A stretch of DNA of 64,000 bases from an uncultured Spirochaetales bacterium (GTDB taxonomy: Bacteria > Spirochaetota > Spirochaetia > Sphaerochaetales > Sphaerochaetaceae), in contig CADAJJ010000009.1 of NCBI GenBank assembly GCA_902788205.1, positions 119 to 64,118 on the forward strand, in the 5' to 3' direction. Under the pieces are notes generated by a model. It saw only the letters and a list, made by a program, of their open reading frames with translations, made no database searches and was not told the DNA's origin. Position numbers and translations under genes: made by a program. Positions within the stretch are counted from its first letter, which is position 1, and every line of letters starts with the position of its first letter. Positions 28,838 to 53,067 of the stretch are shown here, piece by piece.

Positions 28838-29722
28838 TCAGTTCTGGGCCGGATCCGCCATCAGTTTCAGCAACTCATCCCGCTTGAAGTCCAGGTATTC
28901 GCCCCAGAGCTTGTCGTCCAGGAAGGGGTTGCGCGAAGGATCTTTCTGAAGCCGCTCCATCCTACCCAGCGTGTCGTTGTTGATGCAGTGGTTGGCAAGG
29001 AAGAGCTCCACCTTCTCGTCCCTCACCTTTCTCAAGGAATCCAGATACGTCTGACGCATGGCGTGCTTCACGTCGCCGATATCGTCCAGATAGGCTTTCT
29101 GCAAGGTATTGAATCCGAAGCCACCGTAGTAGCCGGCACGCTTGACGCCTTCGTTCCCCTTCACGTCGAAGAAGGTGGCGATGACACCGGCAGTGTGGCC
29201 GGGACAAAGACGGAAGAAGAAATCCATTCCTCCAAAATCGATGTGTTCCTTGTCGTCGATCGCATGGTCGACCACAAAGAGCTCGTCGGCCAGGTTGCCT
29301 GTATCTTGGATTGCCGAAAATTCCGGGTGATGCTGGAAATCCTCAGCATCCGGTCTCCCCAGATAGAGTTTGGTTCCGAACATCCGTCTGAAAAAGAGGG
29401 CTCCGCCAATATGGTCCAGATGTCCATGGGAAAGAATGATCCATCGCACGTTGGCGGGGTTGAAGCCGGCCTCCCAAATGGCGTTGACCAACATCGCTGT
29501 CGCACCGCAGTTGCCGGCATCAATCAGCAATAATCCGTTTCCCGTATCAATCAAATGCACGCAGACCCAGCTGTCACCCACGTACCAGACGTTTCCGTAC
29601 ATCTGGAACGGGTGGACATAGCGTCGCTCCTGATTGGAAAAATATGTTGGCACCATCGGATTGGAGAACCAGCGTTTCCGTTCCTGCTCATACCGGTCAT
29701 AAGCGATTCTCAGTTTCGACAT
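28838..29722 (-). CDS. MBL-fold metallo-hydrolase
   Basis: ILSHGHLDHIGG motif; 294 aa. The start overlaps the upstream gene by 13 nt. Confidence 0.8.
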   Translation of the reverse strand: MSKLRIAYDRYEQERKRWFSNPMVPTYFSNQERRYVHPFQMYGNVWYVGDSWVCVHLIDTGNGLLLIDAGNCGATAMLVNAIWEAGFNPANVRWIILSHGHLDHIGGALFFRRMFGTKLYLGRPDAEDFQHHPEFSAIQDTGNLADELFVVDHAIDDKEHIDFGGMDFFFRLCPGHTAGVIATFFDVKGNEGVKRAGYYGGFGFNTLQKAYLDDIGDVKHAMRQTYLDSLRKVRDEKVELFLANHCINNDTLGRMERLQKDPSRNPFLDDKLWGEYLDFKRDELLKLMADPAQN

Positions 29723-30630
29723 GTTTCCTCCTCTCCTTGTCGCAGGTATGTGTCGAAGAATGCCAGGACTGCCTTTCTTGTCGCGTCTTGGACGAACTCG
29801 TGCGTACCGTGGCCCGCACCACGGACGATATACAGCTCGCTGGGAATTCCTTTCTTCTGGAGCGCTTCGTAGAAGTGTTCGCTCTGGGAAACGGGAACCA
29901 GCGGGTCAAGATCCCCATGGAAGATGGCGACTGGACACATCTTCCGGGAGATGAAGCCGATCGGGCTGGCCGCTTTCGCCATCTTGGCGATATAGGCTGC
30001 ATCCCCTCCGATCATCAGTCCTTCGCGGGTCCTGGTAGGATCATCCCCGTGATAGACGTTGGCCATATGTATGGACCAAAGGTCCACCGGACCGTAGAAA
30101 TCCACCGCCGCCTGGACATGGTCGCTGAACGAGCTCCATTCACTGCTCCGGTATTGGTCGTCGTTCAGGGCGCAGAACGAGGAAAGATGTCCGCCGGCAG
30201 AGCGTCCGATCGTTCCCACCCGGTCCGGGTCGAGGTGATAGCTGTCGGCGTTTGCCCGAAGGAACCGGATCGCCGTCTTCACATCCTCGACCTGCGCGGG
30301 GAAATGTCCCTTGCCGCTGTCGCGGTAGTCGACCACCGCCACCGCGTACCCAGCCTCCGCCAGATAGACGGACTCGGCAGCCTGGTACGTCCGGCAAGGC
30401 ACCGCGCGCCATCCATTCCCGTTGATCCAGACAATCACCGGCTGGCGGAAGCCACCCGCCTCATCATCCCGTCCGAGGACGAGCCGCATCTCGCTGTTGC
30501 CCGCCGCATACAGCAAGGTCATCTTCAGCTCGAGCGGATTTCCGTCCAGGTCAGCCACGTGGCCGAAGACCAGGTCATCCACCACGGTGATCTGGCGGCG
30601 CCTTGCACCCGGCTCAATCACATGCTTCAT
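29710..30630 (-). CDS. Alpha/beta-hydrolase (esterase/lipase type)
   Basis: Nucleophile elbow GRSAGGH plus later HGDLDPLVP and GAGHG motifs. The start overlaps tctA by 17 nt. Confidence 0.8.
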   Translation of the reverse strand: MKHVIEPGARRRQITVVDDLVFGHVADLDGNPLELKMTLLYAAGNSEMRLVLGRDDEAGGFRQPVIVWINGNGWRAVPCRTYQAAESVYLAEAGYAVAVVDYRDSGKGHFPAQVEDVKTAIRFLRANADSYHLDPDRVGTIGRSAGGHLSSFCALNDDQYRSSEWSSFSDHVQAAVDFYGPVDLWSIHMANVYHGDDPTRTREGLMIGGDAAYIAKMAKAASPIGFISRKMCPVAIFHGDLDPLVPVSQSEHFYEALQKKGIPSELYIVRGAGHGTHEFVQDATRKAVLAFFDTYLRQGEEETCRN

Positions 30631-32122
30631 CCGCTACCTCTCGTCTTCTCTGAAAGAGCATGCGCAAAACCGGTGAGAAGATACAGCCGATGGCGACAAC
30701 TAGGAAGCAACAGGAAACCGGACGCGTGAAGAAGGTCGCGATGCCGTTATCGCTACTCTGGAAGCCCTTGAGCATGTTGCTCTCCAAAGTAGGCCCGAGG
30801 ATGAAGGCAAGCATCATAGGAGCCGATGGAAGCCCGGCGAACAGCATCAGTAGCCCGATGATGGCAAAGACAATCATCATGCCGCACTTGTACAACGAAC
30901 CGGACTCGACATAGGCGGAAACCAGGGAAATGACCAGGAGCGCCGGATACATGTAGTGGTAGGGGACCTTCAGGATATAGGGGAACCAGCGCTTGGATGC
31001 CATCTGGATCAGCAAGACGAGAATCGCATCGAAGGCCACCGCGGCGAACATCATGTAGACCAGGTTGCCGGAGTTCCGGAACACCATCGGACCCATCTCG
31101 AGACCCTGGATGGAAAGCGCCCCGATCAGCAAGGCGGTCGAGGTATCGCCCGGGATACCGAGGGAAACCATCGGAATCATGGCGCCACCGATGGCGGCGT
31201 TGTTGGAGACCTCGCTGGCCCAGATGCCGTCAGGCACCCCGGTACCGAACTCGCCCGCACGCTTGCTGTGGTTCTTGCAGGTCGAGTAGGCCACCAAGTT
31301 GGAAAGGCCGGCGCCCATACCCGGAAGGAAACCGATCACAAGACCAATCAGAAAGGAACGGATGATATTGACACCCTGTTCGAAGATTTCAAGCCAGTGC
31401 AAGCCGAATCCCTTCAGGGAGGAGTCATCCACGTCCGGCAACTTGTCAAAGCCACGTCCGTACTCCAAAGCGATACGGGAAATGCCGAAGATGGAAATCA
31501 GGACCACCGTCAGGGAAAGCCCGCTCATCAGGTACATGTTCCCGAAGACGAAGCGTTCCTGAGCATCGATCGGACTGAAACCGACCGAAGCGAACAACAG
31601 GCCGATACAGGCTGAGGTCAAACCCTTGCACATATCGCCCTTGCTGATGGCGATGACCATCGTGATGGCGACCATGCAGAGGGAAAAATACTCCCACGGA
31701 CCGAGCTTGAAGGCAATCGCGGCAATCGACTGGGCCAGGAGGGCGCCAAGGATCGCCGAGAAGAACGTCCCGATGAAACTGGCAACCATGCCGATGGCCA
31801 AAGCATGGCTCGCCTGTCCCTTCTTTGCCATCGGATACCCATCGAAGACGGTGGCCACCGACGAGGGAGAACCAGGAATGCCGAGCAGGACGCTGCCGAT
31901 GAAAGCCCCGGAACAGCCGCCGACCCAGAGCGAAATCAGGAACATGACGCCGGGACCGAGGGCCATATGATAGGTAAGAGGCATGAACAGCATCATCGCC
32001 AGCGACCCCGAGAGACCCGGGATGGCGCCGAAGATGATGCCAATGATGGTGCCTGCAAGCGTCAGGACCAGGTTGTAGCCATTGAAAAGGTTGGAAAAGA
32101 CAAAGGGAAGATACTGTTCCAT
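30614..32122 (-). CDS. tctA: Tripartite tricarboxylate transporter, large permease
   Basis: 502-aa polytopic TctA-type product, adjacent to TctB- and TctC-like genes. Confidence 0.9.
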   Translation of the reverse strand: MEQYLPFVFSNLFNGYNLVLTLAGTIIGIIFGAIPGLSGSLAMMLFMPLTYHMALGPGVMFLISLWVGGCSGAFIGSVLLGIPGSPSSVATVFDGYPMAKKGQASHALAIGMVASFIGTFFSAILGALLAQSIAAIAFKLGPWEYFSLCMVAITMVIAISKGDMCKGLTSACIGLLFASVGFSPIDAQERFVFGNMYLMSGLSLTVVLISIFGISRIALEYGRGFDKLPDVDDSSLKGFGLHWLEIFEQGVNIIRSFLIGLVIGFLPGMGAGLSNLVAYSTCKNHSKRAGEFGTGVPDGIWASEVSNNAAIGGAMIPMVSLGIPGDTSTALLIGALSIQGLEMGPMVFRNSGNLVYMMFAAVAFDAILVLLIQMASKRWFPYILKVPYHYMYPALLVISLVSAYVESGSLYKCGMMIVFAIIGLLMLFAGLPSAPMMLAFILGPTLESNMLKGFQSSDNGIATFFTRPVSCCFLVVAIGCIFSPVLRMLFQRRREVADEACD

Positions 32123-32134
32123 AGCGCATGCTCC

Positions 32135-32599
32135 TTACATCCAAACCGGATCTGGCATCGGAAGCGAAAAGGCCTTCGTGTACAAGAAGTAGACGAAGAG
32201 CGTGAACAACACGCTGAAAAGGATCCGGCCCTTGGTGGCAGACTTCCAACCCTTGGAAAAGAGCGTGGAAAGCACATAGCAGACAATCGGGGTCATGATG
32301 AGGAAACCCAGGTATTTCATCAGGAACACGTAGGCGGAAAGCACCAGGAACACGATGCCGACCCTGACCCATCCCTCTTTGACGAGGAACAGTTTCTGCT
32401 CCTTTTTGCTGAAGGTGCTCTGCAAAAAGATGCCGAGGCCACAGACGACGAAACCGAACGCGGCAAGTCCCGGCATGGCCTTAGGCCCGGGATATTCGAT
32501 CGTAAACGGTACCGGATAGTCACGGATCATGGCGAAAACCACGATGCCAAGGATCACGGTCACGATACCGACCATTTGGTCACGTTTCACTTGGAACAT
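32135..32599 (-). CDS. tctB: Tripartite tricarboxylate transporter, small subunit
   Basis: 154-aa protein with four TM-like segments. ATG 32599 follows GAGAGGAGG. Confidence 0.75.
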   Translation of the reverse strand: MFQVKRDQMVGIVTVILGIVVFAMIRDYPVPFTIEYPGPKAMPGLAAFGFVVCGLGIFLQSTFSKKEQKLFLVKEGWVRVGIVFLVLSAYVFLMKYLGFLIMTPIVCYVLSTLFSKGWKSATKGRILFSVLFTLFVYFLYTKAFSLPMPDPVWM

Positions 32600-32661
32600 G
32601 GGAATCCTCCTCTCTTGCGAGCGAAGGGACTCCGCACGGAAGCCCCTTCGCCGCATGGCAG

Positions 32662-33669
32662 TTATTTTCTCAAGCCGAGATCGACGACGACCGAGTTCAA
32701 GGAAGCCTGGGTATCCTGTACCCGCTTCAAGCCATCCTCGTAGGAAAGGAAAACCATGCCGAAACCCTTCGGATCAAGATCGCCGCTGACTTTTGGATTG
32801 GCATAGGCATTGGCGTACAGGTCGTGCAAGGCACGGGCCAGGTCGTCGCTCATCGACTTCGGGCCAAGGAACAGGTTGATATTGCCCCAGGCGAACTTGT
32901 AGCCGAGTTCGGGGAAACTCTCCAGGTCGGGGAAGACCGGGCAGCGGCCGCCCTCCTCATCACGGGCGACAACAGCCAGGGCACGGACTTTGCCTGCCTC
33001 CACATACTGCTTTGCCTGGTTCGGGTTGACGAAGCATGCGTCGATGGTCTTGCCGACGACAGCAGCCATCTTCTCGGTATCGGTTCCGGCCTCGACGGTC
33101 CTCACCTGGATGCCGGCAGCCTTGGAGAACAAGCCGGTGATGATGTGGGCGGTACCGCCAGTCTCCACACCGAACTTCAGGGAACCGGGAGCTGCCTTTG
33201 CGGCGGCGACCAAGTCGTCGACCGTCTGATACGGCGAGCTCATATCGACAACCAGCGTGTAGCTTGCGGGATCCTTCTGCAGGCTGACGGCAATCACCTT
33301 GTAGTCGTTTGCAGCGGAGCGTTTGAAGACACCACTTGCCGTCTTGATCAGCATGGTGGTGTGGAACTGGAGAATCGTGGACCCATCGCCCTTGGCGTTG
33401 GCGACTTTCTCGAGGGCGACCGCACCACCCCCATCGGTGTTGTTGACGATGGTCACATGGAAACCGCCATCGCTGGCGACCTGGGCCCCGAGCGTACGGG
33501 CCATCACGTCCGTGCCGCCTCCCGTCTTGGCGGGAACCTGCACCTCCATGCTCTTGGGAAGAAGGACGCCACCGTTCTGGGCGGCGCTTTCAGCTTGTCC
33601 GGTGGCAAACAGCGAGGCGGCCATCGCCATGGTCAATGCGGTCAATGCGACCCGTTTCATCAGTCTCAT
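32662..33669 (-). CDS. tctC: Tripartite tricarboxylate transporter substrate-binding protein (Bug/TctC family)
   Basis: Signal peptide MRLMKRVALTALTMAMAASLFA and Bug-family length. AAGGAG RBS. Confidence 0.85.
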   Translation of the reverse strand: MRLMKRVALTALTMAMAASLFATGQAESAAQNGGVLLPKSMEVQVPAKTGGGTDVMARTLGAQVASDGGFHVTIVNNTDGGGAVALEKVANAKGDGSTILQFHTTMLIKTASGVFKRSAANDYKVIAVSLQKDPASYTLVVDMSSPYQTVDDLVAAAKAAPGSLKFGVETGGTAHIITGLFSKAAGIQVRTVEAGTDTEKMAAVVGKTIDACFVNPNQAKQYVEAGKVRALAVVARDEEGGRCPVFPDLESFPELGYKFAWGNINLFLGPKSMSDDLARALHDLYANAYANPKVSGDLDPKGFGMVFLSYEDGLKRVQDTQASLNSVVVDLGLRK

Positions 33670-33751
33670 ACCAAACACTCCTTTTTGGTTTGTCCAAACT
33701 ATGGTTTTCATGGTAAAGGCCCTTTGTAATCTGTCTACTTTTAGTTTATTC

Positions 33752-33768
33752 TATTTTGTCTTAAAATA
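33752..33768. promoter_or_regulatory. Candidate LysR box TATTTT-GTCTT-AAAATA (T-N11-A type palindrome)
   Basis: Perfect 6-bp inverted arms in the 120-bp divergent LysR/tctC intergenic region. Confidence 0.4.
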
Positions 33769-33789
33769 ATTAAGAGAAAAGGAGGGCTT

Positions 33790-34707
33790 ATGGACCTGCA
33801 TCTGCTCGAAAACATAACGATGATCGCCCAGCAGGGAACCATCTCGAAGGCCGCGGAGAAGCTCTATATCACCCAGTCGGCCCTCAACCAGCAATTGCTG
33901 AGACTCGAGGAGGACGTGGGGACTCCCCTCTTCGACCGGGGAGGCCACCGCATGACGCCTACCTACGCCGGACGCGTCTATCTGGAATCTGCGCGGAAGA
34001 TGCTCGAGCTAAAGAAGAAAACCTACCACATCATCCGTGACATCGCCGATGGCAAGCGGGGCGAGATCCATATCGCCTATACTCCGGAACGTGGTGCGGA
34101 CCAGTTCGCCAAGACCTACCCGGTCTTTCACGCGAAGTACCCCGATGTCACCTTTGTCATCCATGAGGAACGGGTCAAGGAGATGGAGAAGCACCTGGCT
34201 GACGGCACGGTCGATATCGCCCACATCTCCATCCGCCAACCCCAGCCCGCCTTCGACTATGAGTGGATCGACAGCGAGCAGATGGTGCTGGCAGTCCCAC
34301 GCGGCAACCCGTTGGCAGAAAAAGCCGACGAGGCGAAAGGACCGGGGCTGCCGCTGCTCGACCCCGCTTGGCTCGCGGGAGAGAAAATCGTCTTGAACTC
34401 CCAAGAGACGCTGATGCGGGACATGGTGGACGACCTCTACCGGCAGGCAGGGCTCAAGCCGGACGTGCTCTTCGAGACATCATCCAGCAAGACCATCATC
34501 AGCGTGGTGGAAAACGGTATCGCCGTGGGTTTCGTACCCCAATCCTATGTGGTTCCCTCCCAGAAGGTGGTGTTCTTCACCGCCGGACACCGGTACGAGT
34601 GGATGCTGACAGTCGCCCACCGGAGGGACTACTACCTCTCCAATGCCGAGCGGGAGTTTATCCGGACCTTCAAGGAACTCTATCAGTCCACCCATCAAAA
34701 CCGTTAG
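33790..34707 (+). CDS. LysR-family transcriptional regulator
   Basis: N-terminal HTH (QQGTISKAAEKLYITQSALNQQLLRLEEDVG) plus a LysR substrate-binding domain. Confidence 0.9.
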   Translation: MDLHLLENITMIAQQGTISKAAEKLYITQSALNQQLLRLEEDVGTPLFDRGGHRMTPTYAGRVYLESARKMLELKKKTYHIIRDIADGKRGEIHIAYTPERGADQFAKTYPVFHAKYPDVTFVIHEERVKEMEKHLADGTVDIAHISIRQPQPAFDYEWIDSEQMVLAVPRGNPLAEKADEAKGPGLPLLDPAWLAGEKIVLNSQETLMRDMVDDLYRQAGLKPDVLFETSSSKTIISVVENGIAVGFVPQSYVVPSQKVVFFTAGHRYEWMLTVAHRRDYYLSNAEREFIRTFKELYQSTHQNR

Positions 34708-35981
34708 TCGGCGACGAGGTTGAGGTAGATCGAGGAGCTGTACCAACCGGCGGTCAAGCTGTTGGCGTCGTCAATGTCCTCGAAGCTGAAGTCAAGGTCC
34801 CCCTCGAGCCGGTACAGGGCAAAGTATCCGTTGTTGGATTTGTCCGTCACCGCGCAGGGAACGACGAGGTAGTCGGCATTGTCGCCTTTGAACACATGGG
34901 TCACCTGCGTCGAGGCATAGTCGGCATAGCTGGCGAAGGTGGTCGACGAGGCGGCCGCATTCCCCTTGTAGGTTATGGTGAAGGGAATCGAATTGTAGGC
35001 GTTCTCGTACGTCGTTCCCACCTTCCTGAGCTTGAAGACGCTCTCCGTGTTGGTGATCGTGTTGGGCTGGGCAGAAATATAGAGCTTGTAGGGAGTCAGG
35101 CTTGTGGCCGCCGGCTTGCTCCGGTAGACCGTGTAGTTGGTCGCCTGGATATCGGCGATCTTCACCCCATTGTTCGCCGCGCTTGCCGTGAGGGAAGCGA
35201 TATCCAGTTGCTTGGCAGCGTCGGTGGCGTTCACGAAGAAGCTGAAATTGGAGCCCTTGTCGGGTTTCTCGCCTCCGACATACCCCCACAGGGTCATATC
35301 GAAGCTCTGGGTCTGGGGAGAGACGGAGGGGTCGGTCGTGGTCATGGTGATGTGCAGGTCGCTCCGGTAATCATGGTACTCTGCCAGATCTTCGTCGGTC
35401 CCCTCGAGGATGATGATGAAATCGGCCCAACGGTCATTCGCTTGGTCCGACGCGGTCCGGTCGCTCGGCTGCATGACAAACGAATAGGACTGGCCGGGAT
35501 TGGTGGTCACGTAGAACGATGAGGAGGAATTGCCGTACTTGGTGGCATCGCTGGTCATGGTGGTGTCGTTCTTGTTTGCACCACTCCCGCTGGTGCTGCG
35601 ACGGCCGTTGACGGCAATCTTATACTTCTTGTACTTGCTATGGTCGGTCTGGGAGGTGAACTGAAAGTCCCCCGAGAAGGTGACCGTCGTGGTCCCTGAG
35701 ACTCCGAGGGCGCCGAAGACGCCGATCATCGTGTCGTCATAATACCCCATCGAGTCATTGTACGCGGTCCTTCCGTTGTTCGGAGTCGTGGTGCCAACCC
35801 ATGCCAAGTTGGTGGAAAAGTCATGGTATTTGTACTCGGGGTCGGTCAAATCGATGCTGCTTGCTGTCTGGGACATGAACTCGACCCAGAACTCATGCTC
35901 TGCAAAAAGGGGCGCGAGAAGGAGCCAGGAGAACAGCGACAACAGGATGGAACACTTGCGGAACATGCGATGCCTCCTCAT
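34704..35981 (-). CDS. Secreted 425-aa protein, largest member of the C-terminal 'aGxYxSSIxLxL' family (gene 4 of 4)
   Basis: Signal peptide MRRHRMFRKCSILLSLFSWLLLAPLFA/EH and S/T/N/Y-rich composition. It ends in TAGWYSSSIYLNLVAD. ATGA overlap with the upstream stop. Confidence 0.7.
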   Translation of the reverse strand: MRRHRMFRKCSILLSLFSWLLLAPLFAEHEFWVEFMSQTASSIDLTDPEYKYHDFSTNLAWVGTTTPNNGRTAYNDSMGYYDDTMIGVFGALGVSGTTTVTFSGDFQFTSQTDHSKYKKYKIAVNGRRSTSGSGANKNDTTMTSDATKYGNSSSSFYVTTNPGQSYSFVMQPSDRTASDQANDRWADFIIILEGTDEDLAEYHDYRSDLHITMTTTDPSVSPQTQSFDMTLWGYVGGEKPDKGSNFSFFVNATDAAKQLDIASLTASAANNGVKIADIQATNYTVYRSKPAATSLTPYKLYISAQPNTITNTESVFKLRKVGTTYENAYNSIPFTITYKGNAAASSTTFASYADYASTQVTHVFKGDNADYLVVPCAVTDKSNNGYFALYRLEGDLDFSFEDIDDANSLTAGWYSSSIYLNLVAD

Positions 35982-36541
35982 TCCCCGTTGGTCAGGGTGA
36001 ACAGGATCGAACCGGTATAATAGCCCGATCCGTACGATGACGCGTCTTTCTGGTACAGGCGAAAATAGATGGGATTGTCCGTGTAGGTCATGATCCGGTC
36101 CGTGCTGCCCAGCGTGTAGACGCCCCCGCTGCCAAGATTCCAATCGGCGTCGGAGCCGGTATTGTTGATATAGGCGATCTTGGTCGAAGAAGGTGACTCG
36201 GCATTTGTCGGGTATTGGATACCGATCTGGTAGGAGATGGCGGACTGGGAGTCCGAACTCTTCACCATCGGCTTGGTGGTCACCTTGACGTTGACCAAGG
36301 CGTTGGTCATCAGCGTCCAGGTACCGATCTGCAGGCCGACAATCTGGTCCTTCGGTGCCACGCTGCTGTCCGTCAGGTCAAAAGAGGACGCCGCCGCGGT
36401 CCGGCCGATGATCAGTGTCGTCTTCGGGTCAAGGAAACCATACAAGTCGACACTCTCGTTCCCGTAGACATTGACGGCACCAAGGCTCCTGGAGGCCAAA
36501 AGCACCATCATCCATACGCGTATGCAAGAAAGGTACTTCAT
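35978..36541 (-). CDS. Secreted 187-aa family member (gene 3 of 4)
   Basis: Signal peptide MKYLSCIRVWMMVLLASRSLG/AV; ends in GSGYYTGSILFTLTNGE. ATGA overlaps at both ends (36538-36541, 35978-35981). Confidence 0.75.
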   Translation of the reverse strand: MKYLSCIRVWMMVLLASRSLGAVNVYGNESVDLYGFLDPKTTLIIGRTAAASSFDLTDSSVAPKDQIVGLQIGTWTLMTNALVNVKVTTKPMVKSSDSQSAISYQIGIQYPTNAESPSSTKIAYINNTGSDADWNLGSGGVYTLGSTDRIMTYTDNPIYFRLYQKDASSYGSGYYTGSILFTLTNGE

Positions 36542-37250
36542 TTGGTTGCCACACTGAGGATGATCGTCCCGCTGTAGTTCTGGGCTGGCAGACCGGCGGT
36601 TTGCATAGCGATATCGACCGAGCCTCCCCACTTCCAAGTGCAGGAGTCCCCGCCGCCTTTCACGGTATAGTCGAGAGCCCAGACCTTGGTATCCTCCAAA
36701 GAGGAGAAATCCAGGTTGCCGGATTTGGTCTCTGTGACTGTCTCGCTGACAATCTTTTCCTTGTCGGACGAGAAGACGGTGGTGTTGCCCTCCACCGAGT
36801 GGGAGAGCGTCGCCCCCCTTTCCGGGTATAGACGGTATTCTCCCGGGTAAACGTGACGGAACCAGGCACGTAGGTTTCGGCATCCTCGCCCACCAGCGGG
36901 GAGATGGAAAGACTGAAATGCAGATGCAACGATGAGCTTTCGGAGTTGCCGAGGGTACCCGTTGCGGACCAGGTAAGCAACGTTCCCTTCACCTCGTCCA
37001 TGGTACCCAGGTTGGCGATGGAGTAGGTGCTCCCGTTGCTTGCCGCCACGCTTCCCTGCCAATAGGCGCCGAAGCTGTCGAGCGCGCTGATCTTCTCGGC
37101 GATGTAGCCGGTGAAGGAGAGTGTGTCCGACCCACGCTTGTTGCTGCCTTCAATCTCATAGCTTTGGGTGGAGACAATGGGGTCGGCACACAATGGGGAC
37201 GCAACGAACACCAACGCGAGGACGAGAGAATGGAAAAGAAGGTGTTTCAT
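36538..37250 (-). pseudogene. Frameshifted family member (gene 2 of 4); ~237 aa if one G is added to the G6 run at 36813-36818
   Basis: The N-terminal frame (MKHLLFHSLVLALVFVASPLCADP...YTRKGG) turns Arg-rich after the G6 tract. The +1 frame continues ATLSHSVEGNTT...PAQNYSGTIILSVATK to a stop at 36538. Confidence 0.7.
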
Positions 37251-37786
37251 GTGGCACTCTCCGTAATCTGGACCGTCGAGACGTAGGTGCCTGCGCAGGC
37301 TGCCGAGCTATCCCCTACCCGCACATAGAAGGTACAGACTTGGCTGCCGGACTGCTCCCGGTTGAAATAAATGGGAATCGCATCGCTCTCCCTCCCTTCT
37401 GGTAATGTCGTCGTAGCGTCACCACGGGAAGTCTTGTAGCCGATGATCAGGGTGTAGTCGATAGCATCGAGCACTGTCCCGCTATCGGTATCGTACTGCT
37501 CAAGCGGAGTGTAGGAGAAATGGAAATTGTGCGTCTTGGTCTCGTTCATGAAGGCGACCATATGGGCGACTTCCTGTGTGGAATTCTTCAGCTCGACCGC
37601 CGCCTCGGTGAGCACGGAGGCACCGGAGACATCCATGATCCTCCACTCGGACAGTCCTTTCTGCTGGTAGTTCCAGCCAAGCGAGATGGCGGTATTGTCC
37701 AATGCCCCTAGTGCCGGCAAAGGCAAGGCCAGCAGGAGAAGCCATCCCAGACATCGAACAGAAAACAGGTGCAAGCGTATGCTCAT
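37247..37786 (-). CDS. Secreted 179-aa family member (gene 1 of 4)
   Basis: Signal peptide MSIRLHLFSVRCLGWLLLLALPLPALG/AL; ends in CAGTYVSTVQITESAT. GGAG RBS 5 nt before the ATG. Confidence 0.75.
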   Translation of the reverse strand: MSIRLHLFSVRCLGWLLLLALPLPALGALDNTAISLGWNYQQKGLSEWRIMDVSGASVLTEAAVELKNSTQEVAHMVAFMNETKTHNFHFSYTPLEQYDTDSGTVLDAIDYTLIIGYKTSRGDATTTLPEGRESDAIPIYFNREQSGSQVCTFYVRVGDSSAACAGTYVSTVQITESAT

Positions 37787-37827
37787 CTCAACTCCAAATG
37801 GGCACTCGTATCTCGTATCCCAGCTCC

Positions 37828-37855
37828 AATATAGAAAAATGCACGAGTGTTACAA
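37828..37855 (-). promoter_or_regulatory. Candidate promoter TTGTAA-16-TATATT for the four-gene operon
   Basis: Minus-strand hexamers at 37855-37850 and 37833-37828, about 40 nt upstream of ATG 37786. The leader carries a tandem heptamer ATACGAG x2 (37805-37818). Confidence 0.35.
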
Positions 37856-38149
37856 GACATATGTCATAACATTTGCAAAAATCTCAATACTTCCGAAAAG
37901 AGAAAACGAAAGCGTCTTCTAAAAAACTATATAACTCACGTAATAATTGGAATTACATTTCAAATTCTTCATCATTTCTCCATGAGACAACTTATTCCAT
38001 AGGTTACGATTTATCCCATAGATAAATACATATATTTGTAATGATTCTGAATAATAAAAAGAGATAAAAAGCAATAATCATGTCACTCTTGACATAAAAA
38101 TACTCACAACTCCACCGAGAAATCCCCAGTCAGTGGTGTCGGCCGCCGG

Positions 38150-38341
38150 CAGCTTGCCTTGCGCCAAGACAAGCAGAATCTGTCGGCCCCCATGGTCGCC
38201 ATCCTCAGCTATATCGACCCAATCACTACCCTTATGCTCGGCGCACTGGTCTTACAAGAGCCCATGACCGCCACCCAATGCATCGGAGCAGTCATCGTCC
38301 TTGGTTCGACACTGGCTGGAAAACTTACCGAGGCCGTCTGA
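38150..38341 (+). pseudogene. 3' remnant of an EamA/DMT-family transporter gene
   Basis: Only the last ~60 codons are present (SAPMVAILSYIDPITTLMLGALVLQEPMTATQCIGAVIVLGS). The frame is closed by TGA at 38090-38092, and there is no upstream TM region. Confidence 0.55.
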
Positions 38342-38888
38342 TATAGCCGTCCTGAGAAGTAAACTGCAGGCCTTGGAGCTTTTGCGTCCGGGTATCCTGG
38401 AAGATCGCGTCGAACAGACGCTGTCCGGTGGAGGTCTTGACCATCTTCTGACGTACCGCACGGATCTCCTCCTCCGGCGCGCCATCCTCATAGAGGTTCA
38501 CGAGAAAGTCCGCCTCGACAAGGATCTGCCAAGAGAGCGTGGAGATATGGGTATAGGTATGGTGGTGGGCAATCAGGAAGCGGACCTGCTCGATCTCATC
38601 CTGACTGAAGCAGCCCACCGACCGCATGACCTTCTCGGCCTCGTCGGGACCGTACAGCTCTTGATGCTTCCCGTTGTTGCCGCCGTGCTCGCGCTCGCTG
38701 ACGTGGATGCCGACGTCATGGAGGATTGCAGCTTCCTCAAGGACGGCCACGTCATGGGCGGGAAGGCCCTCGAGAGTCCCGATTGTCGCGGCGAAGTCGT
38801 GCACTTTCACGAAGTGCTCGATCCTGCGCGCGTCGCCCCTGTCGTAGACGACCATCGCTTCCATCAGTCTCGCCAAACGAATATCCAT
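38325..38888 (-). CDS. HD-domain phosphohydrolase
   Basis: HFVKVHDFA...ILHDVGIH...HHHTY metal-binding pattern. I prefer the start at MDIRLARL (38888). Confidence 0.8.
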   Translation of the reverse strand: MDIRLARLMEAMVVYDRGDARRIEHFVKVHDFAATIGTLEGLPAHDVAVLEEAAILHDVGIHVSEREHGGNNGKHQELYGPDEAEKVMRSVGCFSQDEIEQVRFLIAHHHTYTHISTLSWQILVEADFLVNLYEDGAPEEEIRAVRQKMVKTSTGQRLFDAIFQDTRTQKLQGLQFTSQDGYIRRPR

Positions 38889-49620: not shown

Positions 49621-50742
49621 ATGCTGTTACACCAACCTTCAGACATCCGCACCATCAACCGTCTCCGCGTCCTCAACCTGATCCGCTCGCAACGTGGTCT
49701 TTCCCGTGCCGACATCTCCAAGGAGCTGGGGCTCAACAAGCCCTCCTGCTCGGAGATTGTCAACGACCTTATCGGAGAAGGCCTCGTCACCGAGGGGGAG
49801 AAGACCGAGACGGCAAGCGGCCGCCGGCCCACCCCGCTGATGATCGCCAAGAACGGACATCTGGTCGTCGGGATCTCGATCGGGCTTCGACTCTGTTCGA
49901 TCGCCATCAGCGACCTGGAAGGAAACGTGCTCGGCTACAAGCAGGTCCCCACTCCCCAACATCCAACTCCGAAGGAGCTCTGCATCCTGCTCCTGAAGGA
50001 TTTCCTCCACATGTATCACGGAGGCGAAAAGAAGCTTGCCGGCTGCGTGGTCAGCCTGAGCGGCCGGATTTCCGAAAACAACACCTCCGTGGAGGAGCTA
50101 TCCGAATGGGGATGGAAGGATGTCCATCTCACACTTCCCTTCACCAACAACATGGGCTGCATCTGCTCGTTGGTCGACGAAACCGAGGCTATGGTCAGCG
50201 CCGAGCGCCTTTTGGCAAAAGAACGCCCCGACTCCTTCCTCTATGTCAATTGGGGCGAGCATATCGGAGCCACTTCGGTCCGTGGCAGCCAGGAGGACAG
50301 GAGCGACCTCGGCCACGCGCGGATCGCCAATGAGGGCTCCTGCGTCTGCGGAGGGACCGGCTGTCTGGAAACAGTCAGCGCCGGCTGGGCGGTCGAGAGG
50401 AACTTCGGAGGGAAGTCGTTGCGGGAACTTGCCCAAGCAAGACCGGCCGGCTTCGACAGGGCCATGGATACCGCAGCCCTCGCCCTTGGCATGGAAATCG
50501 CCCAAGCCGTGGCCATCACCGGACAGAAGAAGGTCGTCCTTTCCGGCAACATCCCCACGCTGCTACCTTCCCTGGTGGAGCGGGTCACGCTCGCCATGCG
50601 GAGCTCCCTGCCCCCGTTCCTGCAGGAAGCGGAAATCGTCCGATCCCCGCTCGGTGATAAGGCGAGGCAGATGGGCCCGGTCGCCGTTGCTCTCGACCGC
50701 TACATTTTCCGGCAATCCCTGCTGGCACGGTTCCGGACATAA
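49621..50742 (+). CDS. ROK-family transcriptional regulator (NagC/XylR type)
   Basis: N-terminal HTH (LSRADISKELGLNKPSCSEIVNDL) plus the ROK zinc motif CVCGGTGCLE. Confidence 0.85.
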   Translation: MLLHQPSDIRTINRLRVLNLIRSQRGLSRADISKELGLNKPSCSEIVNDLIGEGLVTEGEKTETASGRRPTPLMIAKNGHLVVGISIGLRLCSIAISDLEGNVLGYKQVPTPQHPTPKELCILLLKDFLHMYHGGEKKLAGCVVSLSGRISENNTSVEELSEWGWKDVHLTLPFTNNMGCICSLVDETEAMVSAERLLAKERPDSFLYVNWGEHIGATSVRGSQEDRSDLGHARIANEGSCVCGGTGCLETVSAGWAVERNFGGKSLRELAQARPAGFDRAMDTAALALGMEIAQAVAITGQKKVVLSGNIPTLLPSLVERVTLAMRSSLPPFLQEAEIVRSPLGDKARQMGPVAVALDRYIFRQSLLARFRT

Positions 50743-50898: not shown

Positions 50899-51423
50899 TC
50901 ACGTGGCGTTCATGTTCACCACCACGGAACCATTGTAGGAACCGGCGGCCAACTTTTGGCCTTCCCCTTTCTTGACCGTGATGCTGAGCATCCCGAAATT
51001 GACGCTGTTCTGGTAACCGGCGGGAACATCGAGCACGAACGAGTCCCCGTCCACTGAAATATTGTCGCCCTCGCTGGTAAGCGAGATGGAAGTGTCCACC
51101 ACGTTGTCGTCATCGTGTTTCAGCGGGGAAACGTCGAAGGAGACCCGGGCGCTCTTGGCGTTCATCAGGTTCCCCGAGCAGCTCAAGAGCAGCGTGTGGG
51201 TGATTTCCCAGGCATCCTGGTCGACGGGAAAATCGAAGACCAGGTTGATGTCATTGCCTTTCTCGGTGATTCCAGACTCATCGGTGAAAGCGATGGAGAT
51301 ATCGTCCTCGGCGATGGTGCCGTTCAGGCGGGCGGTCACCGCATCCGGAAGATCGGAGCTGGTCACCGCCGCATGCAGGGCAAGGGGAATCAGCAACATC
51401 GGCACAATCAGAAGTTTTCTCAT
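50899..51423 (-). CDS. Secreted 174-aa member of the same C-terminal-motif family (locus 2, gene 2)
   Basis: Signal peptide MRKLLIVPMLLIPLALHA/AV; ends in LAAGSYNGSVVVNMNAT. The AAGGAGG RBS overlaps the upstream stop. Confidence 0.75.
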   Translation of the reverse strand: MRKLLIVPMLLIPLALHAAVTSSDLPDAVTARLNGTIAEDDISIAFTDESGITEKGNDINLVFDFPVDQDAWEITHTLLLSCSGNLMNAKSARVSFDVSPLKHDDDNVVDTSISLTSEGDNISVDGDSFVLDVPAGYQNSVNFGMLSITVKKGEGQKLAAGSYNGSVVVNMNAT

Positions 51424-51433
51424 AGCGCCCTCC

Positions 51434-52012
51434 TTAGTTCCTTGTCTCGATCGACAGGGTCACTGACGAGACGTAGTGTCCGGCGGGAGCCGTCGCGACG
51501 TCGTTCTGGTTGGCGGTCACATGAATCGTGTAGTCGTATTGGGTCTTGCCAAGGACAGTATCCAAAGAGAACAGGGAATAGATGGACTCGGTACCGTAGT
51601 CCCTTCTGACGACGGTATTGACCTCGTCGCTGGCAGCGTTGCTGTTGGTCATCATGCGGCTGGTTTCCGGATAGATTTCCTTGCCGTCGACCTGCAGGCT
51701 GGCAACCGCGATCGAAGAGGGGTTGGCGACATTCTGCTGGACGAATGGAGTGACGACCGCATAGACCGTCAGGCTTGCCTTCTTGTTCGTCTCAATCGTG
51801 TAGGGAAGATCGACGCCGTCAACGCCGAGCGCGTCATCCACCGAATAGGTGTCGCGCAGCGCAGTCTTGGTATCGTTCAGAAAACCGTGCAGCAAATAGC
51901 CGGAAACTGACGCGTCGAGATACAGATACGGCGTACCCGACAGTACCGTCTCAGCCGTGGCCGGCAAAAGGGAAAGCAGCCCGATGATCCCAAGGCATGC
52001 CAATCGTTTCAT
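51434..52012 (-). CDS. Secreted 192-aa member of the same family (locus 2, gene 1)
   Basis: Signal peptide MKRLACLGIIGLLSLLPATA/ET; ends in APAGHYVSSVTLSIETRN. AGGAG RBS 7 nt before ATG 52012. Confidence 0.75.
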   Translation of the reverse strand: MKRLACLGIIGLLSLLPATAETVLSGTPYLYLDASVSGYLLHGFLNDTKTALRDTYSVDDALGVDGVDLPYTIETNKKASLTVYAVVTPFVQQNVANPSSIAVASLQVDGKEIYPETSRMMTNSNAASDEVNTVVRRDYGTESIYSLFSLDTVLGKTQYDYTIHVTANQNDVATAPAGHYVSSVTLSIETRN

Positions 52013-52332: not shown

Positions 52333-53067
52333 ATGTTTAGTCCTTTGAGTACAGAGACCAAATCCACCACCATCGCCAACAAGCTGGAAGAGATGATCCT
52401 TTCCAAACAGTTCAAGGCTGGCGAGCTTTTGCCCAGCCAGAAGGAACTGGCGCTCCAGTTCAACGCTTCTTCCCGCTCGGTGCGCGAGGCGTTCAAGAAT
52501 CTGGAGGCCAAGGGGCTGATCCAGGTCAGCCAGGGCCGCAAGGCGGTGGTCAAGAGCAACAACCTCGACCAGTTCGTCGAATCCTTGTCCATTTCCATGA
52601 TCAGCAAACAGGCGCCGGACAAGAAGCTGATCAGCGATCTGCTCCAGGTCCGTACCACCATCGAGGTTTCCGCGAGCCGTGAGCTCTCCAGAGACCCGAA
52701 CCGCATGTCGGTCGTCCGTCAGCTGGCCAAGTGCACCAGCCGCCTTCAGGAACTGCTGCCTCTGCTCGAGGACGGGATGAACGCCGAGGCGCTCCAGCAG
52801 TTCAAGCAGGCCGACTTCGACTTCCACTCCACGCTGATCAAGTCGAACGACAACATGATCCTCAACTCCATCTATGAGAATCTGGCCCCGCAGCTCTATT
52901 CTGTTTTGGACAAGACCACCGAGACTTTCACCGAGATGAAGAAGAAGGTCAACGAGTACAACTATCTGGTCGAGGCCGAAGAGCACGGACAGACCGACCT
53001 CGCCGTAGCCCTTACGCTGGTCAACCTGACCAACATCAAGGACAAGATCGAGAAACTCGACCTGTAA
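52333..53067 (+). CDS. GntR-family (FadR/FCD subfamily) transcriptional regulator
   Basis: N-terminal wHTH (LPSQKELALQFNASSRSVREAFKNLEAKGLIQV) plus an all-helical FCD-like C-terminal domain. Confidence 0.9.
   Translation: MFSPLSTETKSTTIANKLEEMILSKQFKAGELLPSQKELALQFNASSRSVREAFKNLEAKGLIQVSQGRKAVVKSNNLDQFVESLSISMISKQAPDKKLISDLLQVRTTIEVSASRELSRDPNRMSVVRQLAKCTSRLQELLPLLEDGMNAEALQQFKQADFDFHSTLIKSNDNMILNSIYENLAPQLYSVLDKTTETFTEMKKKVNEYNYLVEAEEHGQTDLAVALTLVNLTNIKDKIEKLDL

What the first reader, a model, noticed from the sequence alone, without database searches (positions are those of the whole stretch)
34704..37786. Four-gene ATGA-coupled operon of secreted proteins that all end in one pilin-like C-terminal strand, with no assembly machinery
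Four consecutive minus-strand ORFs encode 179 aa, ~237 aa (frameshifted), 187 aa and 425 aa. They are joined by three identical ATGA stop/start overlaps (37247-37250, 36538-36541, 35978-35981). Each product starts with a signal-peptide-like segment: LLLLALPLPALG/AL, VLALVFVASPLC/AD (possibly a lipobox), MMVLLASRSLG/AV and LLSLFSWLLLAPLFA/EH. All are S/T/N/G/Y-rich and poor in charged residues. All finish within 5 residues of the stop with the same motif: CAGTYVSTVQITESAT, PAQNYSGTIILSVATK, GSGYYTGSILFTLTNGE, TAGWYSSSIYLNLVAD. This can be written [AGQ]-x-Y-x-[GS]-[ST]-[IV]-x-[LIF]-x-[LIV]. That terminal aromatic/alternating-hydrophobic strand is what spore-coat-protein-U/Csu, DUF4402-type and classical fimbrial subunits end with. 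Three small subunits plus one tip-adhesin-sized protein also echoes a pilus operon. However, I see no usher-sized beta-barrel, PapD-like chaperone, sortase, secretin or ATPase anywhere in the window. The operon's 3' end overlaps the convergent LysR stop (TTAG, 34704-34707), so there is no room for a terminator. I could not place these proteins in any family I know. The locus is a candidate for an undescribed surface fibre, adhesin or envelope-layer system.
Basis: partly seen in the sequence, partly recalled or inferred. Interest (0 to 1): 0.8.

Follow-up and report, generated by a model that had tools for sequence, protein, structure and literature searches.

The report
Pilin-like adhesin cassette without assembly machinery
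A gut-type spirochaete (Sphaerochaetaceae) carries a conserved four-gene cassette of secreted proteins that look like the subunits and tip adhesin of E. coli CFA/I-type fimbriae, yet no chaperone or usher to assemble them is encoded nearby, so it may build a fibre or adhesive complex in a new way.

Summary
Four co-directional minus-strand genes (A 179 aa, B about 236 aa with a frameshift, C 187 aa, D 420 aa) are real. They are under purifying selection (dN/dS 0.06-0.23), have signal peptides and match no Pfam or NCBIfam family.

The same four-gene order recurs at 25-40% identity in unrelated metagenomic contigs, once as three tandem cassettes.

The shared C-terminal strand is not chance. A matrix built only from 12 class-5 (CFA/I, CS1) fimbrial subunits ranks A-D, plus two further window genes (50899-52012), as the top six of 250 ORF C-termini.

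D is probably a remote relative of the CfaE/CblD tip adhesins. The support is a sub-threshold Pfam hit, a top Foldseek hit from a weak model, and collinear profile alignment far above shuffled controls. A, B and C resemble D's C-terminal domain.

No usher or chaperone is found in the window or in eight related loci.

- Only two ATGA junctions are real start/stop overlaps.
- B is not a lipoprotein.
- The B frameshift is a circulating natural allele.

Structure prediction failed, so donor-strand assembly and surface location remain inferred.

The parts
37828..37855 (-). Sigma-70-like promoter (TTGTAA, 16 nt spacer, TATATT) about 40 nt upstream of gene A
   Evidence: This is the only promoter-like site in 34300-38400. 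It lies in a roughly 330-bp upstream block conserved with L007 and L008, beyond which synteny breaks.
37856..37865 (.). Perfect 10-bp palindrome GACATATGTC abutting the -35 hexamer; a candidate operator
   Evidence: Read directly from the sequence. It sits within a block that is invariant in the window, L007 and L008. Function is inferred only.
37247..37786 (-). Gene A: 179-aa secreted protein ending ...CAGTYVSTVQITESAT
   Evidence: ORF. Signal-peptide features. dN/dS 0.21-0.23 against L007/L008. No Pfam or NCBIfam hit. Class-5 terminal-strand matrix score 10.7 bits, rank 4 of 250. Resembles D's C-terminal domain: hhalign 24.2 against a shuffled null of 11.1 +/- 2.0. Annotated 'hypothetical protein' in Sphaerochaetaceae MAGs.
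36538..37250 (-). Gene B: about 236-aa secreted protein, disrupted here by a frameshift; ends ...PAQNYSGTIILSVATK
   Evidence: Two overlapping frames. Intact 236-241-aa versions occur in L003, L005, L007, L008 and many public contigs. dN/dS of the repaired gene is 0.17. Matrix score 12.4 bits, rank 1 of 250. hhalign against D's C-terminal domain 28.6 against a null of 9.6 +/- 1.1.
36813..36818 (-). G6 homopolymer that frameshifts gene B (in-frame alleles have G4)
   Evidence: The exact truncated 196-aa product is on 47 contigs. One contig carries a downstream compensating indel that restores the C-terminus (P0092).
35978..36541 (-). Gene C: 187-aa secreted protein, the most conserved subunit; ends ...GSGYYTGSILFTLTNGE
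   Evidence: ORF. Seven homologues at 31-40% identity. dN/dS 0.06-0.15. Matrix score 11.5 bits, rank 2. hhalign against D's C-terminal domain 24.3 against a null of 10.0 +/- 1.7.
35973..35979 (-). GAGGAGG Shine-Dalgarno for gene D, overlapping the stop codon of C
   Evidence: Sequence. Gene callers start D at 35966 on six contigs.
34704..35966 (-). Gene D: 420-aa secreted two-domain protein (alternative start at 35981 gives 425 aa), a candidate CfaE/CblD-like tip adhesin. The N-terminal domain is about residues 23-231 and ends with an internal copy of the strand motif (DYRSDLHITMTTT) followed by a further conserved strand. The C-terminal domain is about residues 232-420 and ends ...TAGWYSSSIYLNLVAD.
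   Evidence: ORF. Exhaustive search finds only seven relatives. Sub-threshold Pfam CblD hits in orthologues P0006 and P0009. Foldseek top hit 3f83, CfaE-CfaB, E = 2.1e-5, from a low-confidence model. hhalign against six class-5 tip adhesins: score 33.0 against a shuffled null of 12.9 +/- 2.1 and 17.6 for the reversed control. dN/dS 0.10-0.17.
51434..52012 (-). Gene E1: 192-aa secreted protein from a second locus with the same terminal strand (...APAGHYVSSVTLSIETRN)
   Evidence: No Pfam hit. Matrix score 6.5 bits, rank 5 of 250. 'Hypothetical protein' in Sphaerochaetaceae MAGs.
50899..51423 (-). Gene E2: 174-aa secreted protein, adjacent to E1, with the same terminal strand (...LAAGSYNGSVVVNMNAT)
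   Evidence: No Pfam hit. Matrix score 5.8 bits, rank 6 of 250.

Best explanation
The locus is a self-contained, translationally coupled four-gene cassette from a Sphaerochaetaceae bacterium. It encodes Sec-exported, acidic, beta-rich envelope proteins of one previously undescribed superfamily.

D is a two-domain protein built like the tip adhesins of class-5 (CFA/I, CS1, cable-pilus) fimbriae. It has an N-terminal domain that appears complete, and a C-terminal pilin-like domain that stops 2-3 residues after a tyrosine-corner strand. A, B and C are single-domain paralogues of that C-terminal domain and end in the same way.

The most likely mechanism is as follows. After export each subunit has a beta-sandwich that lacks its last strand. 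The N-terminal strand of a neighbouring subunit supplies it (donor-strand complementation). The result is a short ordered heteromeric fibre or adhesive complex with D at the distal end.

No chaperone or usher is encoded with any copy of the cassette. Assembly is therefore either spontaneous, as in TasA, archaeal bundling pili and cannulae, or it uses unlinked and unrecognised factors.

Shown: gene reality, conservation of the cassette, signal-peptide features, the terminal motif and its fixed distance from the C-terminus, similarity to class-5 subunits, and local absence of machinery.

Inferred: the incomplete fold, donor-strand polymerisation, subunit order and surface exposure.
For: 1. Real, constrained genes: dN/dS is 0.06-0.23, against 0.06-0.08 for a neighbouring housekeeping gene.

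2. The cassette is a conserved unit. The same A-B-C-D order and sizes are found in L007 and L008 (90-92% identity) and in L009, L010, L012 and L013 (25-40% identity). L012 holds three tandem cassettes. The A/B and B/C 4-nt overlaps are conserved.

3. The terminal strand matches class-5 fimbrial subunits. A matrix from 12 gammaproteobacterial subunits ranks B, C, D, A, E1 and E2 as the top six of 250 ORF C-termini, at 12.4-5.8 bits. The next ORF scores 3.3 and the median is -10.9. The aromatic residue sits 11 or 12 residues from the C-terminus in 40 of 44 members.

4. D resembles CfaE/CblD:
- Pfam CblD gives E = 0.0021 and 0.058 at the start of the C-terminal domain.
- Foldseek hits 1 and 2 are CfaE-CfaB and CfaB-CfaB.
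- hhalign is collinear over 289 columns with a score of 33.0. Forty column shuffles give 12.9 +/- 2.1 (maximum 17.3) and the reversed control gives 17.6.
- D's C-terminal domain against the CfaE pilin domain scores 32.5. The known-homologous pair, tip adhesin against major pilin, scores 32.9.

5. A, B and C resemble D's C-terminal domain: scores of 24-29 against nulls of 10-11 +/- 1-2 and reversed controls of 10-12.

6. The motif also occurs inside D, at the end of its N-terminal domain, where a further conserved strand follows it. It is therefore a fold element and not a sorting tag.

7. Null alleles of B (47 contigs) and of D (E196*, 44 contigs) circulate. Loss variants of this kind are often seen for exposed structures.
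Against: - No confident structure was obtained: pLDDT was 33.7 for C and 42.4 for D. The Foldseek result rests on a weak model with TM-scores of about 0.19.
- All links to class-5 fimbriae are below curated thresholds. Pfam CblD scores 17.8 bits against a cut-off of 25. Mature D against the tip adhesins gives only 15% hhalign probability.
- These lines of evidence are not fully independent, because all reflect the same sequence signal.
- A, B and C do not score above noise against class-5 major pilins.
- After signal-peptide removal, similarity among A, B and C themselves is weak; the best pair reaches 44% probability.
- A tyrosine-corner strand also occurs in complete Ig-like and FN3 folds.
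- Known chaperone-usher subunits need a chaperone to fold, and none is seen here.
- No route across a spirochaete outer membrane is identified.
- Coupled, presumably equimolar expression does not suggest a long homopolymeric pilus.
Confidence: 0.45

Rival explanations
1. This is an ordinary chaperone-usher system with split loci. The cassette is a satellite subunit/adhesin operon, and its chaperone and usher are encoded elsewhere in the genome.
For: D resembles a class-5 tip adhesin, and the terminal strand is that of chaperone-usher subunits. Subunits of this kind normally need a chaperone. Only 64 kb of this genome and about 21 kb or less of each relative could be inspected.
Against: Profiles built from six class-5 ushers and six chaperones find nothing in any six-frame fragment of the window or of L001, L002, L007-L010, L012 and L013; the best E-values are 0.64 and 2.5 among 1134 fragments. 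The only window ORF over 700 aa is a regulator. The cassette keeps exactly four genes across roughly 25% identity and is tandemly triplicated with no machinery interspersed. From my own knowledge, not tested here: chaperone-usher pili have been reported in Proteobacteria, Cyanobacteria and Deinococcus-Thermus, but not in Spirochaetota.
Confidence: 0.17
2. The products do not polymerise. They form a complex of complete beta-sandwich proteins in the periplasm or on the surface, for example a substrate-binding or envelope-associated hetero-oligomer organised like the Gram-positive Csc/WxL clusters. The shared terminal motif is simply the last strand of a common, complete fold.
For: ATGA coupling suggests roughly equimolar subunits rather than one abundant major pilin. 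Several cassettes per genome, all products with Sec signals and a shared C-terminal element parallel the csc clusters (PMC1534035). No secretion or assembly machinery is present. A, B and C do not score against class-5 major pilins. The neighbours are transporters and sugar-acid metabolism genes.
Against: The polypeptides end at a tightly fixed 11-12 residues after the motif aromatic in 40 of 44 members, which suggests the free end matters. In D's N-terminal domain the same motif is followed by one more conserved strand, which is missing at every C-terminus. D aligns end to end with a donor-strand-dependent adhesin family. No WxL, DUF916 or LPxTG features are found.
Confidence: 0.25
3. The products are outer-membrane beta-barrels or porin-like proteins, and the terminal motif is a BAM targeting signal.
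For: The composition is rich in S/T/N/G/Y and beta-strand. There is an alternating hydrophobic strand at the extreme C-terminus. The organism is diderm; an Lnt gene lies in the window.
Against: Only 2 of 44 members end in an aromatic residue; most end in D, N, E, K, T or P. The motif also occurs internally in D. The best structural and profile matches are soluble Ig-like pilins and adhesins. Proteins of 150-165 mature residues with a single motif are small for barrels.
Confidence: 0.05

Closest known systems
Class-5 / alpha (alternate chaperone-usher) fimbriae: CFA/I (cfaABCE), CS1 (cooBACD), CS19, Burkholderia cable pili (CblD)
   Same: Both have Sec-exported subunits of about 150-165 mature residues plus a two-domain tip adhesin of about 340-400 residues. 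The terminal strand [AT]-[AS]-G-x-Y-x-G-x-[VIL]-x-[VIL]-x-[VILFM]-[TS] lies close to the C-terminus in both. D aligns collinearly with CfaE, including the G-G-x-W, Y-T-x-N-I-T and F-x-L-[KR]-K motifs. Both are four-gene operons.
   Different: The cassette has no chaperone (CfaA/CooB) and no usher (CfaC/TcfC). All four genes encode subunit-like proteins. A, B and C are not detectably homologous to CS1-type major pilins. The tail after the strand is shorter and more fixed: 11-12 residues after the Tyr, against 12-18. The host is Spirochaetota rather than Proteobacteria. Similarity stays below every curated threshold.
Archaic (sigma) chaperone-usher pili: Csu, CupE, SCPU-domain proteins (PF05229)
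   Same: Several small subunits plus a two-domain tip protein, and a G-x-Y-x-[DG]-T-V-x-V terminal strand.
   Different: Only one of 32 family members gives a weak SCPU hit (E = 0.097, 13.5 bits against a cut-off of 22.4). There is no CsuC or CsuD equivalent.
Gram-positive Csc / WxL cell-surface clusters (cscA-D; PMC1534035)
   Same: Four-gene cassettes, several per genome, every product with a Sec signal peptide, and two or more products sharing a C-terminal element. The proteins are acidic and about 190-280 aa. Function is unknown but presumed to be a surface complex.
   Different: There are no Trp-x-Leu motifs, no D-x-R-G, no DUF916 protein with a membrane anchor, no LPxTG protein and no Pfam WxL hit. 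The host is diderm.
Chaperone-free donor-strand fibres: TasA, archaeal bundling pili (AbpA), Pyrodictium cannulae (CanA)
   Same: Secreted beta-sandwich subunits polymerise by strand donation with no dedicated chaperone or usher (abstracts listed). This is the mechanistic precedent for assembly without local machinery.
   Different: No sequence relationship was detected: no Peptidase_M73/TasA hit appears in Pfam. Those fibres are essentially homopolymers. Here there are four distinct subunits, including a two-domain one.

Membership tests
Class-5/alpha chaperone-usher fimbriae (CFA/I, CS1, Cbl) | Subunits carry a cleavable Sec signal peptide | tested here: met
   Each product has a single N-terminal hydrophobic segment (Kyte-Doolittle 1.6-2.4), 1-2 K/R before it, and small residues at -3/-1. 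No other hydrophobic segment is present. The feature is conserved in all homologues. No SignalP run was available.
Class-5/alpha chaperone-usher fimbriae (CFA/I, CS1, Cbl) | C-terminal strand A-G-x-Y-x-G-x-h-x-h-x-h-T within a few residues of the C-terminus | tested here: met
   A matrix from 12 class-5 subunits ranks the six window proteins 1-6 of 250 ORFs. The Tyr lies 10-13 residues from the end in 42 of 44 members.
Class-5/alpha chaperone-usher fimbriae (CFA/I, CS1, Cbl) | Two-domain tip adhesin of the CfaE/CblD family (PF07434) | tested here: inconclusive
   Pfam CblD scores 17.8 bits (E = 0.0021) in P0006 and 13 bits in P0009, against a cut-off of 25; window D itself gives no hit. hhalign gives 92% probability with signal peptides and 15% without. 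The score of 33.0 compares with a shuffled null of 12.9 +/- 2.1. The top Foldseek hit is CfaE-CfaB, but the model has pLDDT 42.
Class-5/alpha chaperone-usher fimbriae (CFA/I, CS1, Cbl) | Major pilin homologous to CS1-type pilins (CfaB/CooA) | tested here: not met
   hhalign of A, B, C, E1 and E2 against six major pilins scores 14-22, at noise level. hmmsearch E-values are 0.09 or higher.
Class-5/alpha chaperone-usher fimbriae (CFA/I, CS1, Cbl) | Dedicated periplasmic chaperone (CfaA/CooB type) in the operon | tested here: not met
   The chaperone profile's best E-value is 2.5 over 1134 six-frame fragments of the window and eight loci. B against the chaperone scores 13. No PapD hit appears in Pfam scans.
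Class-5/alpha chaperone-usher fimbriae (CFA/I, CS1, Cbl) | Outer-membrane usher (CfaC/TcfC type, about 850 aa) in the operon | tested here: not met
   The usher profile's best E-value is 0.64. The only window ORF over 700 aa is an AraC/periplasmic-binding regulator. The rest of the genome could not be searched.
Class-5/alpha chaperone-usher fimbriae (CFA/I, CS1, Cbl) | Incomplete Ig-like fold completed by a neighbour's N-terminal donor strand | not testable with these tools
   AlphaFold2 monomer models were low confidence: pLDDT 33.7 and 42.4. No multimer prediction was available.
Archaic chaperone-usher / SCPU (PF05229) and DUF4402 | Significant match to the SCPU or DUF4402 profile | tested here: not met
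   Of 32 members, one gives SCPU E = 0.097 and none hits DUF4402.
Csc / WxL surface clusters | Two W-x-L motifs (WxL domain), a DUF916 protein with a C-terminal membrane anchor, and a small LPxTG protein | tested here: not met
   No Pfam WxL or DUF916 hit in 32 members. No second hydrophobic segment. The terminal strand has F, I, V or L, never a conserved W. Family definition taken from PMC1534035.
Outer-membrane beta-barrel proteins | C-terminal beta-signal ending in an aromatic residue | tested here: not met
   Only 2 of 44 members end in F.

The most novel reading that the evidence does not exclude
Spirochaetes of the Sphaerochaetaceae, and other uncultured bacteria, build a heteromeric donor-strand-complemented fibre from CFA/I-like subunits and a CfaE-like tip adhesin without any chaperone or usher. 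This would be a self-assembling, four-subunit relative or evolutionary precursor of the alternate chaperone-usher fimbriae, in a phylum where such pili are unknown. It would be switched on and off by null alleles such as the G-tract frameshift in B.
Probability: 0.25. Interest if true: 0.85.

Novelty: new variant of a known kind. Interest (0 to 1): 0.68.

Why it matters
Chaperone-usher fimbriae are thought to depend on their chaperone and usher and to be largely confined to Proteobacteria and a few other phyla.

This cassette pairs a CfaE-like adhesin and pilin-like subunits with no such machinery, and it is conserved in a non-motile gut spirochaete lineage. It has also expanded into tandem arrays elsewhere. 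If it assembles, it would show either a machinery-free way to assemble this class of subunit or a new assembly and secretion partner.

It would also give a first candidate adhesin or fibre for Sphaerochaetaceae. All six proteins are currently annotated as 'hypothetical' and match no Pfam or NCBIfam model, so defining the family would annotate hundreds of metagenomic genes.

If the proteins prove to be complete, non-polymerising folds, the finding shrinks to a new family of secreted beta-sandwich proteins with a convergent terminal strand.

Tried and rejected
- Pfam and NCBIfam on the four proteins gave nothing significant. PHROGs gave nothing meaningful, and Rfam found nothing in the window or the leader.
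- Word-indexed homology searches found only D itself, two remote D-like proteins and seven C-like proteins. The exhaustive HMMER search found seven proteins; one was a spurious multi-repeat Calx-beta giant at E = 3.6e-4, which I discounted.
- The JGI metagenome scan found only one near-identical contig.
- Profile searches against PDB sequences gave no hits.
- AlphaFold2 gave pLDDT 33.7 for C (8-sequence alignment) and 42.4 for D (4-sequence alignment). C's model was not searched further. D's Foldseek result is used only as weak corroboration.
- Pairwise BLAST among A-D shows no significant similarity. hhalign among A, B and C after signal-peptide removal is weak, with a best probability of 44%.
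- The lipoprotein idea for B is rejected, because the Cys is not conserved.
- The sequencing-error explanation for the frameshift is rejected, because the same allele is on 47 contigs.
- The idea that B is a PapD-like chaperone is rejected. It does not match class-5 chaperones, and it ends in the subunit motif.
- The idea of a C-terminal sorting tag is rejected, because the motif recurs internally in D.
- Literature searches for the assemblies, or for spirochaete chaperone-usher systems, found nothing relevant.
- The taxonomy of the AT-rich loci (L009, L010, L012, L013) could not be determined.

Full report
**What is there.** Four co-directional ORFs lie on the minus strand between 34704 and 37786:
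- A: 37247-37786, 179 aa.
- B: 36538-37250, split over two frames.
- C: 35978-36541, 187 aa.
- D: 34704-35966, 420 aa, or 425 aa from the ATG at 35981.

GC3 is 0.66-0.77, like the neighbouring genes. Between the window and two relatives, dN/dS is 0.06-0.23, against 0.06-0.08 for the nearby 5'-nucleotidase gene. These are real genes under purifying selection.

A sigma-70-like promoter (TTGTAA, 16 nt, TATATT) lies at 37828-37855. It abuts a perfect palindrome, GACATATGTC (37856-37865), in a roughly 330-bp leader block conserved with L007 and L008. Synteny breaks upstream of that block. No Rfam family matches the window or the leader. D's stop codon overlaps the stop of the convergent LysR gene.

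- The A/B and B/C overlaps are genuine stop/start overlaps. They recur in distant relatives.
- The C/D junction is doubtful. Gene callers on six independent contigs start D at ATG 35966, behind GAGGAGG at 35973-35979. Distant orthologues also start D 10-14 nt after the stop of C.
- The B frameshift lies in a G-run (36813-36818). It is G6 in the window and in JGI contig L011, and G4 (in frame) in L003, L005 and L007.
- The exact 196-aa truncated product occurs on 47 public contigs, and intact 236-241-aa forms occur on many more. This is a circulating null allele, not an error.
- One contig (P0092) carries a second indel that restores the C-terminus.
- In the G6 allele, B terminates at 36660, which is 119 nt before C's start. 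The ATGA coupling to C is therefore lost. I infer that C expression may fall as well.
- D also has a common null allele, E196*, seen in L005. Its 195-aa product is on 44 contigs.
- The proposed lipobox in B is not conserved. L008 has Gly there and distant homologues have no Cys.
- All products have one N-terminal hydrophobic segment with K/R before it, no other membrane-like segment, and acidic mature parts.

**Organism and context.** Close relatives are annotated 'hypothetical protein' in MAGs named Sphaerochaetaceae, Spirochaetaceae or Spirochaetales bacterium.

The window neighbours are housekeeping or metabolic genes: LysR, TctCBA, a BD-FAE hydrolase, a metallo-beta-lactamase-fold protein, an HD-domain protein, Lnt, rhomboid, GGT, HtpG, ProRS, transketolase, MatE, CstA and sugar-acid enzymes. 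The only ORF over 700 aa is an AraC/periplasmic-binding regulator.

**The cassette is a conserved unit.** D is nearly an orphan. The word-indexed search of 5.8 billion proteins found only D itself. Exhaustive HMMER over 1.84 billion representatives found seven proteins.

Their contigs show the same four-gene order and sizes (about 190, 246, 186 and 403-412 aa) at 25-40% identity, in L009, L010 and L013. L012 carries three tandem cassettes filling a 12-kb contig. L009 and L013 add extra D-like paralogues and small family members. None of these genes has a Pfam domain.

**The terminal strand.** Every member ends in [G/Q]-x-[Y/F]-x-x-x-h-x-h-x-h. In 42 of 44 proteins the aromatic residue is 10-13 residues from the C-terminus, with 30 at 11 and 10 at 12. 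A strict regular expression finds it at 4 of 250 window ORF C-termini, against 0.35 expected.

That scan uncovered two more members in the window. E1 (51434-52012, 192 aa) and E2 (50899-51423, 174 aa) both have signal peptides and no Pfam hit.

The motif also occurs inside D proteins, at the end of the N-terminal domain (DYRSDLHITMTTT in the window). There it is followed by another conserved strand (...TQSFDMTLWGYV). It is therefore an element of the fold, not a sorting tag. The C-termini stop exactly where the N-terminal domain still has one more strand.

**Comparison with real fimbrial subunits.** Scanning 32 members against Pfam gave only sub-threshold hits. CblD, the 'pilus biogenesis initiator' family that includes CfaE, hit P0006 (E = 0.0021) and P0009 (E = 0.058) at the start of the C-terminal domain. 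SCPU gave one hit at E = 0.097.

A low-confidence AlphaFold model of D (pLDDT 42.4, mostly strands) was searched against the PDB. Its best hit was 3f83, the CfaE-CfaB fusion (E = 2.1e-5). The second was 3f84, CfaB-CfaB. TM-scores were poor.

I then fetched six class-5 operons: CFA/I, CS19, and operons from Serratia, E. fergusonii and two Pantoea plasmids. Their subunits end ...TAGNYSGVVSLVMTLGS (CfaB) and ...EAGQYMGNIKITFTPSSQTL (CfaE).

A position matrix built only from these 12 termini ranks B, C, D, A, E1 and E2 as the top six of 250 window ORF C-termini. Their scores are 12.4, 11.5, 10.8, 10.7, 6.5 and 5.8 bits. The next ORF scores 3.3 and the median is -10.9.

Profile-profile comparison of the D family with the six tip adhesins gave these results:

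| Comparison | hhalign result |
|---|---|
| D against tip adhesins, signal peptides included | 92% probability |
| Mature D against mature tip adhesins | score 33.0, 15% probability, collinear over 289 columns |
| Null: 40 column shuffles | 12.9 +/- 2.1, maximum 17.3 |
| Null: reversed profile | 17.6 |
| D's C-terminal domain against the CfaE pilin domain | 32.5 |
| Positive control: tip adhesin against major pilin | 32.9 |

A, B and C score 24.2, 28.6 and 24.3 against D's C-terminal domain. The shuffled nulls are 10-11 +/- 1-2 and the reversed controls 10-12. They do not score above noise against class-5 major pilins.

**Machinery.** Profiles of the six class-5 ushers and chaperones find nothing in any six-frame fragment of the window or of L001, L002, L007-L010, L012 and L013. 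Genome-wide absence could not be tested.

**Interpretation.** The best-supported reading is a new superfamily of Sec-exported, pilin-like beta-sandwich proteins organised as a four-gene cassette. It comprises three single-domain subunits and a CfaE/CblD-like two-domain adhesin.

By analogy with class-5 fimbriae, each C-terminus would end at the penultimate strand of an Ig-like fold. That would leave a groove for a neighbour's N-terminal strand. Tight translational coupling argues for a short, stoichiometric heteromer rather than a long homopolymer.

How it would fold without a chaperone and cross the outer membrane is unknown. Chaperone-free donor-strand fibres (TasA, archaeal bundling pili, cannulae) give a precedent for the first problem only.

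The rivals are an unlinked chaperone-usher pair, a non-polymerising complex organised like the Csc/WxL clusters (PMC1534035), and outer-membrane barrels, which I consider unlikely.

**Limits.**
- Both structure predictions failed.
- Every link to class-5 fimbriae is below curated thresholds, and the links share one underlying sequence signal.
- Column shuffling is a lenient null.
- No experimental or expression data exist.
- The taxonomy of the AT-rich relatives is unknown.

Noticed in passing
window 50899-52012 (minus strand): A second, two-gene locus (E1 192 aa, E2 174 aa) encodes secreted proteins with no Pfam hit that end in the same pilin-like strand. It lies between a ROK regulator (49621-50742) and a GntR-like gene (52333-53067). 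The window therefore holds six members of the superfamily.
   Followed up: partly
window 36813-36818; L011, L003, L005, L007: The G-tract in gene B is polymorphic: G6 is out of frame and G4 is in frame. The truncated product is on 47 contigs. One contig (P0092) has a compensating downstream indel that restores the C-terminal strand. This could be phase variation or lineage-specific loss; no G5 or G7 alleles were seen.
   Followed up: partly
L005 1013-2275 (equivalent to window about 35379-35381): A GAG-to-TAG nonsense allele (E196*) splits D at its domain boundary into 195-aa and 213-aa products. The 195-aa form is on 44 public contigs, so null alleles of D are common in natural populations.
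   Followed up: partly
window 36730-36770 region of B; P0077, P0084, P0087: A short A-rich stretch in B varies by indels between strains (SSDKEKIV, SSGKKKIV, SSGKNKKEIV, SSGNKEIV), suggesting a hypervariable loop.
   Followed up: no
window 29710-34707 compared with L001, L003, L006, L007: Structural polymorphism downstream of D. The window, L002 and L008 carry an intact LysR plus TctCBA and a BD-FAE hydrolase. L001, L003, L006 and L007 have only a 141-aa LysR C-terminal remnant joined directly to the metallo-beta-lactamase-fold and C_GCAxxG genes, that is, a deletion of about 5 kb.
   Followed up: partly
window 37787-38330 compared with L007 and L008, about 7620-8170: Upstream of the conserved 330-bp leader, the cassette's neighbours differ. 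The window has an HD-domain gene and Lnt. L007 and L008 have an ABC solute-binding protein and an AraC-type sensor. The cassette plus leader therefore sits at a rearrangement breakpoint.
   Followed up: no
P0005 (113 aa, from the exhaustive search): This protein looks like a chimera. It has an A-like signal peptide and N-terminus (ATSYSLSWTYSRLAETDWRIT) fused to a D-like C-terminal 85 residues. It may be an assembly artefact or a recombinant between family members.
   Followed up: no
L012 1-12017; L009 1-6439; L013 1-5499: In AT-rich metagenomic contigs (NCBI assembly GCA_024712465.1) the cassette is tandemly triplicated. It is accompanied by extra D-like paralogues (424-451 aa) and small C-like members, which suggests a rapidly diversifying multigene family. 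The source organism is unknown.
   Followed up: partly
window 34263-35522 (+), 36215-36577 (+) and many others: Long antisense ORFs with very high first-position GC (0.75-0.8) overlap real genes throughout the window. They are artefacts of GC3-rich coding on the opposite strand, not genes.
   Followed up: yes
window about 29366-29618 (+), antisense to the metallo-beta-lactamase-fold gene: An 84-aa antisense fragment, and its counterparts in L007 and L008, gave the best hmmsearch hit to the class-5 major-pilin profile (E = 0.0015-0.0016). This is probably chance, preserved because the sense gene is conserved.
   Followed up: no
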